A stretch of DNA of 44,292 nucleotides. It comes from a virus (Duplodnaviria > Heunggongvirae > Uroviricota > Caudoviricetes). Location: the IMG/VR virus record IMGVR_UViG_2660238147_000001; one strand, given 5' to 3'. The translations under genes were made by a program, and so were the position numbers. The first letter of the stretch is position 1. Each line of letters begins with the position of its first letter. Shown here piece after piece: positions 10,234 to 10,740 of the stretch. The notes under the pieces were generated by a model that saw only the letters and a list, made by a program, of their open reading frames with translations, did not search any database and had not been told where the DNA came from.

Positions 10234-10491
10234 ATACAGCGAACGCCATTGGTTTAGTTGGATATTTACTGTGCCGGACAAAAACGGTTTGCGGGGAAAT
10301 CTTAGTTAAGTAGAATGACTGCGGGTGCTTGAGGCTATCTGTCTCAGGCATGAACACCAAAAGGCAGATAGAGAAAAGCCCCAGTTAACATTACGCGTCC
10401 TGCAAGACGCTTAACATTAATCTGAGGCCATATCTATGCGACACATAGAGATTAGCCTCTTACGGACCGAAAGGTCAAGGAGAAGCAGGCT

Positions 10492-10647
10492 ATGAAGCAG
10501 CAAAAGGCGATGTTAATCGCCCTGATCGTCATCTGTTTAACCGTCATAGTGACGGCACTGGTAACGAGGAAAGACCTCTGCGAGGTACGAATCCGAACCG
10601 GCCAGACGGAGGTCGCTGTCTTCACAGCTTACGAACCTGAGGAGTAA
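10492..10647 (+). CDS. hokD: Hok/Gef-family type I toxin (HokD/RelF-like)
   Basis: 51-aa ORF MKQQKAMLIALIVICLTVIVTALVTRKDLCEVRIRTGQTEVAVFTAYEPEE, recognised as Hok family; followed by the fold-back region and an intrinsic terminator. Confidence 0.85.
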   Translation: MKQQKAMLIALIVICLTVIVTALVTRKDLCEVRIRTGQTEVAVFTAYEPEE

Positions 10648-10716
10648 GAGACCTGGCGGGGGAGAAATCCCTCGCCACCTCTGATGTGTCAGGCATCCTC
10701 AATGCACCCGCACTTA

Positions 10717-10740
10717 ACCCGCTTCGGCGGGTTTATTTTA
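10717..10740 (+). terminator. Rho-independent terminator downstream of hok
   Basis: Hairpin ACCCGC-TTCG-GCGGGT followed by TTATTTTA. Confidence 0.6.

What the first reader, a model, noticed from the sequence alone, without database searches (positions are those of the whole stretch)
10380..10740. Stand-alone hok-type type I toxin locus without relBE
An intact 51-aa Hok/Gef-family ORF with its 3' fold-back region and terminator is present, but the relB/relE genes that precede hokD in Qin are absent; upstream are only an AT-rich spacer and a 59-aa membrane protein gene. Whether a Sok-like antisense RNA or mok-like coupling frame exists in the leader (10380-10491) determines whether this is a live toxin-antitoxin module or a silenced remnant.
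Basis: partly seen in the sequence, partly recalled or inferred. Interest (0 to 1): 0.4.

Follow-up and report, generated by a model that had tools for sequence, protein, structure and literature searches.

The report
Complete hokD/sok toxin–antitoxin module in prophage
This is an ordinary, structurally complete hok/sok-type toxin–antisense RNA module in a Qin-like E. coli prophage; the relBE-linked hokD of K-12 is the truncated, less common form.

Summary
A 51-aa Hok ORF lies at 10492-10647 and is identical to K-12 HokD. It has a 3' fold-back element and a terminator, and no relB or relE occurs anywhere in the window.

- **Leader:** it starts at about 10323, not 10380. It matches Rfam's hok/sok leader model over its full length (106.7 bits; gathering score 59).
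- **Regulatory elements:** tac, ucb, mok SD, a leader ORF, a sequestered hok SD and fbi are each identifiable, as is a convergent antisense Sok-like gene.
- **Leader ORF:** it has 19 codons and ends in a UGA that overlaps the hok AUG.
- **Conservation:** the full-length fold pairs tac with fbi, and the fold covaries across 100 distinct relatives. The window departs at none of 261 columns that are at least 90% conserved.
- **Closest characterised relative:** the locus is 91% identical in DNA to hokW-sokW of phage Sp5, a shown type I toxin-antitoxin system.
- **Frequency:** full-leader copies occur in 3811 of 5426 complete E. coli genomes. The K-12 relE-hokD junction occurs in 1201.

It is a known kind of system and of low interest. 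Both promoters are inferred by homology only, because the simple consensus scan found none. Activity was not tested.

The parts
10289..10316 (+). Putative hok promoter: weak -35 TTGCGG (10289-10294), 16-nt spacer, -10 TAGAAT (10311-10316), then 6 nt to the predicted +1 G at 10323.
   Evidence: Read from the sequence. The geometry matches the R1 hok -10 box TATGAT, which is followed by 6 nt and then GGCGC (the -10 box is validated in PMC9841398). A TANNNT hexamer sits at the same offset in the most frequent upstream variants tabulated. Most E. coli hits begin at query base 41 or 65, which is window 10280 or 10304. The simple promoter scan does not report this site.
10323..10334 (+). tac (translational activator element), GGGTGCTTGAGG, at the 5' end of the hok mRNA.
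   Evidence: It is the first position of the Rfam RF01794 match. It pairs with fbi in the full-length fold and with ucb in the fold of the leader alone. Pair 4/410 covaries: UA in 87 sequences, CG in 10.
10376..10382 (+). ucb, the anti-SD box AAGCCCC. It sequesters the mok SD in the closed form and pairs with tac in the open form.
   Evidence: The folds show both pairings. The Rfam consensus structure pairs it with tac. The columns are invariant or nearly invariant in alignment A2.
10424..10427 (+). mok-type Shine-Dalgarno sequence, GAGG.
   Evidence: It is invariant in 100 distinct relatives (G102 A103 G104 G105). It lies 8 nt upstream of the ATG at 10436. GAGG is the mok SD in R1 (PMC9841398).
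10436..10495 (+). mok-like leader ORF of 19 codons (MRHIEISLLRTERSRRSRL). Its TGA stop at 10493-10495 overlaps the hok ATG, giving the sequence ATGA.
   Evidence: Read from the sequence. The start codon aligns with the annotated mok and mokW starts. The same 56-nt spacing class occurs in 11 of 100 distinct relatives, in two separate clades. This segment is at least 99% identical in 783 E. coli records.
10370..10444 (-). Predicted Sok-like antisense RNA of about 73 nt. It has a 5' tail complementary to the mok start region, a long hairpin at 10377-10429, and the tail UUUUCUCU.
   Evidence: The fold gives -31.7 kcal/mol with z = -5.2. The Sp5 counterpart has the same architecture. sokW RNA is reported as 71 nt complementary to the hokW 5' UTR (PMC8621323). 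Hairpin helix 4 has 6 pairs with changes on both sides.
10449..10478 (-). Putative Sok promoter: -35 TTGACC (reverse complement of 10473-10478), 18-nt spacer, -10 TAATCT (reverse complement of 10449-10454).
   Evidence: Read from the minus strand. It aligns with the R1 segment AGGATAGCCTCTTAC...GCGCAAGG and with the Sp5 sokW region TTGCCT-17-TAACCT. Mutating the sokW -10 region abolishes antitoxin activity (PMC8621323). It falls below the threshold of the simple scan.
10477..10482 (+). hok Shine-Dalgarno sequence, AAGGAG, base-paired with the upstream CCTCTT at 10456-10461.
   Evidence: Folds. Helix 6 is 98% paired across 100 sequences.
10492..10647 (+). hok toxin gene of 51 aa, identical to HokD.
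   Evidence: Pfam HOK_GEF at 1.2e-23. PHROG 251 'MokW-like host killing' at 2.8e-33. RefSeq annotates it as hokD.
10630..10633 (+). TACG at the Tyr47 codon, the TadA-type A-to-I editing context that would recode Tyr to Cys.
   Evidence: TACGAA is invariant in all 100 relatives (T308-A313). Editing of hokD at this position is reported in PMC5630033 and PMC12214031.
10656..10676 (+). 3'-UTR hairpin GGCGGGGGAGAAATCCCTCGCC. It is the likely protective end of the processed, active mRNA.
   Evidence: Folds. Helices 16 and 17 are conserved, and pair 349/361 is GC in 66 sequences and AU in 29. The role is inferred from the R1 model (PMC9841398).
10697..10709 (+). fbi (fold-back inhibitory element), CCTCAATGCACCC. 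It is complementary to tac, with one bulged base.
   Evidence: The full-length fold forms 12 pairs with 10323-10334. Helix 1 is 96.3% paired and 3 of its pairs change on both sides.
10716..10739 (+). Intrinsic terminator of the hok mRNA.
   Evidence: Terminator scan: 7-bp stem with 5 G-C pairs, GCTTCGGC loop region, then a T-run. Most E. coli hits end at query base 495, which is window 10734.

Best explanation
The segment from about 10289 to 10739 is a self-contained, structurally complete hok/sok-type type I toxin-antitoxin module. It is the full-length form of hokD and an ortholog of hokW-sokW of phage Sp5. It sits in the early-right (nin-like) region of a Qin-like lambdoid prophage of E. 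coli.

The following mechanism is inferred from the R1 paradigm and from the anatomy shown here.
1. A weak promoter makes a roughly 415-nt hok mRNA.
2. The 5' tac pairs with the 3' fbi. The mok SD is held by ucb and the hok SD by CCUCUU, so the full-length RNA is stable and silent.
3. Slow 3' trimming removes fbi. The 5' end then refolds into the tac/ucb stem and frees the mok SD.
4. Ribosomes translate the 19-codon leader ORF across the hok SD and terminate on the hok AUG (AUGA). This opens the hok start for translation of the membrane toxin.
5. A short-lived antisense Sok-like RNA of about 73 nt is made from a convergent promoter inside the leader ORF. It pairs with the mok start region and blocks step 4, and the duplex is degraded.

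Toxin should appear only when Sok supply stops. Loss of the element or prophage induction would do this. The K-12 relBE-hokD arrangement is a derivative that lost everything upstream of the hok SD.
For: - **Toxin:** HOK_GEF at 1.2e-23, and a protein identical to HokD. A 2025 survey used HokD as a positive control with published toxicity, and all overexpressed characterised homologs were toxic (bioRxiv 10.1101/2025.08.07.668861).
- **Leader:** Rfam RF01794 matches 10323-10494 over all 157 model positions, at 106.7 bits against a gathering score of 59. The leader aligns element by element with R1-type hok/sok and with hokW-sokW.
- **Closed form:** the full-length minimum-energy fold pairs tac with fbi and GAGG with GCCCC, z = -7.8.
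- **Open form:** the leader alone folds at minimum energy into the tac/ucb stem, and GAGG is then largely unpaired.
- **Covariation:** across 100 distinct relatives, 92.5% of cells are paired, against about 41% when partners are slid. 38 pairs change on both sides, including pairs in the tac-fbi helix.
- **No lesion:** the window differs at 0 of 261 columns that are at least 90% conserved.
- **Leader ORF:** it stays open through the hok SD. In R1, mok translation is required only up to the hok SD and not beyond the hok start (PMC9841398).
- **Antisense RNA:** a 5' tail, a long hairpin and a U-tail, z = -5.2, the same as in Sp5. The promoter hexamers align with those of sokW, which were tested by mutation (PMC8621323).
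- **Ortholog:** hokW-sokW is 91.4% identical in DNA and is a shown type I toxin-antitoxin system.
- **K-12 comparison:** K-12 homology begins only 14 nt before the hokD ATG.
- **Discrete unit:** homology among genomes starts at about 10280-10304 and ends at about 10734.
Against: - The simple sigma-70 scan reports no promoter on either strand in 10150-10850. Each candidate has only 3 of 6 matches in one hexamer, so transcription of both RNAs is inferred by homology alone.
- Folding the 3'-trimmed RNA (10323-10690) does not give the tac/ucb stem at minimum energy. It gives a local 5' hairpin instead.
- The tested structure was derived from the window's own fold, which favours it in the slid-partner control.
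- Several intact chromosomal hok loci were reported not to mediate post-segregational killing (Pedersen and Gerdes 1999, as cited). Structural completeness therefore does not prove activity.
- The 19-codon leader ORF differs from the leader frames of the tested loci. R1 has an overlapping out-of-frame mok, and Sp5 has an in-frame one. Its coupling efficiency has not been measured.
Confidence: 0.85

Rival explanations
1. It is a structurally intact but physiologically quiescent chromosomal hok locus. The elements are all present, but the module does not kill on loss and gives no phenotype. This was reported for several chromosomal hok loci. The module would then persist by hitch-hiking on prophages.
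For: [quoted passage not shown] Both promoters fall below the scan threshold. HokD needs A-to-I editing of Tyr47 to gain the second cysteine, and hokD editing in K-12 is low, at 6% (PMC12214031).
Against: The window departs at none of 261 conserved columns. Base pairs are maintained by compensatory changes. The leader ORF is kept open in every one of three frame classes. These are signs of continuing selection on regulation. The 91%-identical hokW-sokW locus gives measurable phenotypes (PMC8621323).
Confidence: 0.25
2. It is a silenced remnant. The toxin ORF would survive while the leader has lost its Sok and mok control elements, as in K-12 hokD.
For: The K-12 copy of the same protein really is such a remnant (PMC12214031). 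The consensus promoter scan finds nothing.
Against: There is a full-length Rfam leader match. tac, ucb, mok SD, the mok ATG, the hok SD pairing, fbi and the terminator are all present and lie at conserved positions. An antisense hairpin and U-tail are present. No IS element, frameshift or stop codon is seen.
Confidence: 0.04
3. The module's main role is as a prophage-induction lysis helper rather than as an addiction module. Early rightward transcription after induction would read into the co-oriented hok locus and collide with Sok transcription. Sok would fall, and Hok would permeabilise the membrane ahead of holin and endolysin. This is a statement about role, and it is compatible with the best explanation's mechanism.
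For: In Sp5, sokW RNA disappears after mitomycin C and HokW appears in a RecA-dependent way. Lysis is about 40 min earlier, and phage yield is about 2-fold higher than in the deletion mutant (PMC8621323). In the window, hok is co-oriented with the upstream early genes and with the downstream DUF968, RusA and Q genes. No terminator-like site on the + strand lies between 8500 and 10330.
Against: The collision mechanism is my inference; the paper leaves the cause of Sok loss open. In Sp5 the locus sits in a different prophage region. This Qin-like prophage carries pseudogenes and may not be inducible.
Confidence: 0.35

Closest known systems
hokW-sokW of Sakai prophage 5 / phage VT2-Sakai (Takada et al. 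2021, PMC8621323)
   Same: The DNA is 91.4% identical over 10304-10719. The leader layout, tac, ucb, mok SD, fbi and Sok hairpin are the same. Both toxins are 51 aa. Both loci are carried by lambdoid prophages.
   Different: - By my reading of the alignment, HokW differs from HokD at 5 of 51 residues, near the C-terminus.
- The mokW start is 57 nt upstream and in frame with hokW. Here the spacing is 56 nt, and the leader ORF stops on the hok AUG.
- The Sok promoter is TTGCCT-17-TAACCT in Sp5 and TTGACC-18-TAATCT here.
- The window has a canonical GC-hairpin terminator. The Sp5 sequence diverges after fbi.
- The position within the prophage differs.
hokD (relF) of E. coli K-12 Qin prophage, in the relBE-hokD operon
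   Same: The protein is identical, WP_000813254.1. The hok SD, coding region, 3' UTR, fbi and terminator are the same, at 98.8% identity over 10478-10734. The downstream neighbourhood is the same, a DUF968 gene followed by an antiterminator gene.
   Different: In K-12, homology stops 14 nt upstream of the ATG, and relE lies there instead. K-12 therefore lacks the hok promoter, tac, ucb, mok and sok (PMC12214031). The K-12 junction is found in 1201 of 5426 genomes, and full-leader copies in 3811 of 5426.
hok/sok (parB) of plasmid R1, the archetype
   Same: The order and spacing of the elements are the same:
- a -10 box, then 6 nt, then the +1 G;
- tac GG(G/C)(T/C)GCTTGAGGC;
- AGCCCC;
- mok SD GAGG and the mok ATG;
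- GCCTCTTAC;
- CAAGGAGAAG and the hok ATG.
The number of leader codons upstream of the hok start, 19, is also the same (PMC9841398).
   Different: HokW, which differs from HokD at about 5 residues, shares only 44% protein identity with R1 Hok (PMC8621323). R1 mok is a 70-aa out-of-frame ORF that overlaps hok. The R1 Sok hairpin is shorter. R1 is plasmid-borne and has a shown post-segregational killing role.

Membership tests
[quoted passage not shown] | A small Hok/Gef-family membrane toxin ORF of about 50 aa. | tested here: met
   HOK_GEF at 1.2e-23 and 82.9 bits, against a cutoff of 22. PHROG 251 at 2.8e-33. The protein is identical to HokD.
[quoted passage not shown] | A structured 5' leader homologous to characterised hok leaders. 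| tested here: met
   RF01794 matches 10323-10494 over model positions 1-157 of 157, at 106.7 bits against a gathering score of 59. The match is on the hok-sense strand and ends at the hok AUG, so it models the leader that Sok overlaps.
[quoted passage not shown] | A long-range 5'-3' tac/fbi pairing that closes the full-length mRNA. | tested here: met
   A 12-bp helix joins 10323-10334 to 10697-10709 in the minimum-energy fold. It is 96.3% paired in 100 relatives, and 3 of its pairs change on both sides.
[quoted passage not shown] | An alternative tac/ucb stem that frees the mok SD after 3' processing. | tested here: inconclusive
   The leader alone adopts this stem at minimum energy, and it is the Rfam consensus structure. 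However, the 3'-trimmed 368-nt RNA folds at minimum energy into a local 5' hairpin instead. Processing itself cannot be tested with these tools.
[quoted passage not shown] | A mok-type leader ORF with its own SD, open at least through the hok SD, and a hok SD that is sequestered. | tested here: met
   GAGG lies at 10424-10427, the ATG at 10436, and 19 codons run to a TGA at 10493-10495. The hok SD is paired in helix 6, which is 98% paired across relatives. The requirement is defined in PMC9841398. The ORF does not overlap the hok coding sequence as R1 mok does.
[quoted passage not shown] | A convergent antisense Sok RNA gene (promoter, 5' tail, terminator hairpin, U-tail) that overlaps the mok start. 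| tested here: inconclusive
   The hairpin and U-tail are clear, z = -5.2. TTGACC-18-TAATCT aligns with the sokW and R1 Sok promoter regions. The consensus scan does not call a promoter, and there are no transcript data.
[quoted passage not shown] | Toxicity of Hok, and its neutralisation by Sok in cis or in trans. | not testable with these tools
   Toxicity of the HokD coding sequence is reported from overexpression. Antitoxin activity has been shown only for the 91%-identical sokW.
relBE-hokD (relBEF) operon of Qin, K-12 type | relB and relE lie immediately upstream, and hokD lacks its own leader. | tested here: not met
   No relB or relE is found in the window. A full leader is present instead.

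The most novel reading that the evidence does not exclude
The 56-nt spacing class has a 19-codon leader ORF that ends in a UGA overlapping the hok AUG. It may be a functionally distinct coupling mode of hok loci. It would work by pure termination-reinitiation, with no Mok-Hok overlap and no N-terminally extended Hok. This class has arisen at least twice. Together with the in-frame (57 nt) and out-of-frame (58 nt) classes, it suggests that selection acts only on ribosome transit to the hok start, and that toxin output may be tuned by frame switching through 1-2-nt indels.
Probability: 0.15. Interest if true: 0.35.

Novelty: already known. Interest (0 to 1): 0.15.

Why it matters
Mostly it does not: this is a textbook type I toxin-antitoxin module, and full-leader copies are present in about 70% of complete E. 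coli genomes.

Its modest value is as a corrective to the K-12-centred view of hokD. Papers still describe hokD as a gene that lacks sok and mok. That holds only for the relBE-linked arrangement, found in about 22% of genomes.

RefSeq annotates only the toxin CDS at this locus. The Sok RNA, the leader ORF and the cis elements go unannotated. The element coordinates given here could be transferred to several hundred near-identical copies.

The three leader-ORF frame classes give natural-variation support for an experimental conclusion about R1. That conclusion is that mok needs to be translated only as far as the hok start.

Tried and rejected
- **Promoter scan:** the simple sigma-70 scan of 10150-10850 found no promoter on either strand. 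I therefore do not claim independent promoter evidence.
- **Trimmed-RNA fold:** folding 10323-10690 to see the open tac/ucb form gave a local 5' hairpin at minimum energy. Only the isolated leader gives tac/ucb.
- **Ungapped fbi search:** an ungapped search for the best complement of the 5' end picked the neighbouring GTGTCAGGCATCC through G-U pairs. The gapped fold and the covariation point to CCTCAATGCACCC instead.
- **Primer sequences:** I looked for the sokW primers to fix the mutated -10 box, but no supplementary files are held.
- **Literature search:** no paper uses 'sokD' as a gene name.
- **The 59-aa upstream ORF:** it has no Pfam or PHROG family. Sources give only 'hypothetical' or 'putative membrane protein' as names.
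- **Second hok copy or relBE elsewhere in the window:** none found.
- **Weak Rfam hits in 10000-11000:** ceN48, CRISPR-DR46, Phe_leader, rsmX and others are all far below their gathering scores and are treated as chance.

Full report
**Observation**

The window carries a 51-aa ORF at 10492..10647(+), MKQQKAMLIALIVICLTVIVTALVTRKDLCEVRIRTGQTEVAVFTAYEPEE. It matches Pfam HOK_GEF at E = 1.2e-23 and PHROG 251 'MokW-like host killing' at 2.8e-33. It is residue-for-residue the HokD protein of E. coli K-12, WP_000813254.1.

Downstream lies the only intrinsic-terminator-like site of the region, at 10716-10733, followed by a T-run. No relB or relE is detectable anywhere in the 44-kb window; the best tblastn E-values are 1.1 and 7.5. 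It has no family assignment, and some sources call it a 'putative membrane protein'.

**Context**

The region is 100% identical to the chromosome of E. coli SK1144. It lies in a Qin-like lambdoid prophage. dicB, ydfABC and the DicF sRNA are upstream. A DUF968 gene, rusA, a Q-type antiterminator and three tRNA genes are downstream. All genes from the cro-like regulator to Q are on the same strand as hok.

**The leader**

The homologous leader is longer than that.

Rfam's covariance model RF01794 ('sok') matches 10323-10494 across all 157 model positions, at 106.7 bits against a gathering score of 59. The match is on the hok-sense strand and ends exactly at the hok AUG. It is therefore a model of the hok leader that Sok overlaps.

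Three alignments place each element:
- an R1-type hok/sok locus on an IncFII plasmid, whose Hok is 100% identical to the R1 Hok sequence I supplied from memory;
- hokW-sokW of phage VT2-Sakai / Sp5;
- a GenBank record named 'Escherichia phage Rac', with annotated mok and hok.

The elements, in order along the + strand, are:
- a -10 box TAGAAT at 10311-10316, six bases before a G at 10323. This is the same geometry as the validated R1 box TATGAT (PMC9841398);
- tac, GGGTGCTTGAGG, at 10323-10334;
- ucb / anti-SD, AAGCCCC, at 10376-10382;
- the mok SD, GAGG, at 10424-10427;
- an ATG at 10436;
- the hok SD, AAGGAG, at 10477-10482;
- after the ORF, a GC-rich hairpin at 10656-10676;
- fbi, CCTCAATGCACCC, at 10697-10709.

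**Folds**

The full-length RNA (10323-10737) folds at minimum energy with tac paired to fbi. GAGG is paired to GCCCC, and the hok SD is paired to the upstream CCUCUU. The z-score against shuffles is -7.8. This is the closed, untranslatable form described for R1 (PMC9841398).

The leader alone folds at minimum energy into the tac/ucb stem, which leaves GAGG largely unpaired. This is the open form and the Rfam consensus structure.

A 3'-trimmed 368-nt RNA did not give tac/ucb at minimum energy. It gave a local 5' hairpin instead. I therefore score the refolding step as inconclusive.

**Conservation**

I collected 133 related loci from one-genome-per-species contigs and from IMG/VR and aligned 100 distinct full-length sequences.

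On that alignment, the window-derived structure has 92.5% of cells paired, against 36-43% when partners are slid by one to three columns. There are 38 pairs with changes on both sides, and no shuffle out of 500 reached the observed value on four of the five measures; 4 of 500 did on further pair types. In the tac-fbi helix, pair 4/410 is U-A in 87 sequences and C-G in 10. Pair 12/401 is G-C in 82 and A-U in 5.

One caveat applies: a structure derived from one member of the alignment is favoured in the slid-partner control.

The window departs from the majority residue at none of the 261 columns that are at least 90% conserved. It is a canonical member of the family, with no lesion at any conserved position.

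**The leader ORF**

From the ATG at 10436, the frame runs for 19 codons and stops at the TGA at 10493-10495. This stop overlaps the hok ATG at 10492-10494, giving the sequence ATGA.

Relatives fall into three spacing classes:
- **57 nt:** mok is in frame with hok with no intervening stop, giving an N-terminally extended Hok. This class holds 79 of the 100 sequences, including the mokW CDS annotated in the VT2-Sakai record.
- **56 nt:** this is the window's class, with 11 of 100. It occurs in two separate clades and arose by different indels.
- **58 nt:** this is the classical out-of-frame overlapping mok, with 9 of 100, including the annotated mok of the Rac record.
- The remaining sequence has no ATG at the aligned position.

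No sequence that has a leader ATG has a stop before the hok SD.

Mutational profiling of R1 showed that mok must be translated up to the hok SD, and that translation beyond the hok start is unnecessary. In R1, too, 19 mok codons precede the hok start (PMC9841398). The window's short ORF therefore meets the known functional requirement, and its ATGA overlap suits termination-reinitiation. Its coupling efficiency has not been measured.

**The antisense gene**

On the minus strand, the sequence CTCCTTGACCTTTCGGTCCGTAAGAGGCTAATCTCTATGTGTCGCAT contains three features:
- TTGACC, the reverse complement of 10473-10478;
- an 18-nt spacer;
- TAATCT, the reverse complement of 10449-10454.

This site aligns with the Sp5 sequence TTGCCT-17-TAACCT and with the R1 segment. 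In Sp5, mutating the sokW -10 region abolished protection, and sokW supplied in trans restored it (PMC8621323).

An RNA starting near 10443 would have about 15 nt complementary to the mok start, a long hairpin at 10377-10429, and a UUUUCUCU tail. The fold gives -31.7 kcal/mol with z = -5.2, and the Sp5 counterpart has the same shape. Its length of about 73 nt agrees with the 71-nt complementarity reported for sokW.

The simple consensus scan calls no promoter on either strand. Both promoters are therefore inferred by homology only.

**Relation to K-12 and frequency**

K-12-type genomes match the window only from 10478 onward, which is 14 nt before the ATG. Upstream of that point lies relE. K-12 hokD is therefore the truncated form, as the literature states (PMC12214031).

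Among 5426 complete E. coli genomes:
- 3811 hold at least 80% of 10240-10760, which includes the leader;
- 1201 hold the relE-hokD junction;
- 783 records hold the window's own 76-nt mok / Sok-promoter segment at 99% identity or more.

Across genomes, homology typically starts at 10280-10304 and ends at about 10734. These are the predicted promoter and terminator, so the module behaves as a discrete cassette of about 450 bp. Copies also occur on Stx phages, on P1-like phage-plasmids and on other plasmids.

**Mechanism and role**

By homology and anatomy, the module should work as R1 hok/sok does:
1. A stable, closed full-length mRNA is made.
2. Slow 3' processing removes fbi.
3. The 5' end refolds and exposes the mok SD.
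4. Translation of the leader ORF opens the hok start.
5. Sok blocks the mok start, and the duplex is degraded.

What is shown here is the presence, the positions, the predicted pairing and the covariation of the elements. What is inferred is transcription, processing, coupling, Sok instability and toxicity in this context.

The role is less certain. Several intact chromosomal hok loci did not give post-segregational killing. The Sp5 ortholog advances lysis and doubles phage yield after induction, with RecA-dependent loss of sokW.

In the window, hok is co-oriented with the upstream early genes. No + strand terminator-like site lies between 8500 and 10330. Read-through that collides with Sok transcription is therefore a plausible trigger, but this is my inference only.

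**Verdict**

Functional liveness was not tested. The locus is a known kind of system, common and ordinary. The only mildly new point is the recurrent 19-codon leader-ORF class.

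Noticed in passing
window 10436-10495, compared with L003, L004 and alignment A2: The mok-type leader ORF occurs in three frame classes among 100 distinct relatives. 57-nt spacing is in frame with hok (79). 56-nt spacing ends on the hok AUG (11, in two independent clades). 58-nt spacing is the classical overlapping form (9). None has a stop before the hok SD.
   Followed up: yes
window 10630-10633: The Tyr47 codon TAC is followed by G, which is the TadA-type UACG editing context. TACGAA is invariant in all 100 relatives. Editing would create the second conserved cysteine, as reported for hokC, hokD and hokE. A second TACG lies at 10586-10589. It spans Val32 and Arg33, so editing there would be synonymous, and hokW has a G at that A.
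   Followed up: partly
window 10054-10233 (+): A 59-aa, strongly hydrophobic ORF lies behind AGGAGG. RefSeq does not annotate it in strain SK1144, but the exact sequence is on at least 1000 contigs, where it is named hypothetical or 'putative membrane protein'. It has no Pfam or PHROG family. Homology of most hokD loci does not extend into it.
   Followed up: partly
window 4505-4556 (-): A DicF antisense sRNA gives a full-length Rfam match at 76.7 bits. It confirms a Qin / dicB-type prophage immunity and division-inhibition region.
   Followed up: no
window 14730-14919 (+): The sRNA STnc100 (RF02076) matches at 132.4 bits. It lies downstream of the tRNA cluster and upstream of the iraM-like gene.
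   Followed up: no
window 13784-14030 (+): Three tRNA genes lie just after the Q-type antiterminator gene. RefSeq annotates them as Ile, Arg and Arg. This arrangement is typical of Stx-like lambdoid late regions.
   Followed up: no
window 9567-9883 (+): RefSeq marks the gene just upstream of the 59-aa ORF as a pseudogene with a frameshift and an internal stop. This suggests the prophage is decaying.
   Followed up: no
L135, L048, L030 and L008 (related loci): A few relatives other than K-12 lack a recognisable tac upstream of hok. In Kluyvera (L030) the upstream sequence resembles the K-12 relE-hokD junction. Leader loss may therefore have been inherited or may have recurred outside E. coli.
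   Followed up: no
P1-like phage-plasmids, for example MH445381.1 at 15782-16169: hokD-type loci about 90% identical to the window's, leader included, sit on P1-like phage-plasmids and on other plasmids. In the phage records shown no feature is annotated under the match.
   Followed up: no
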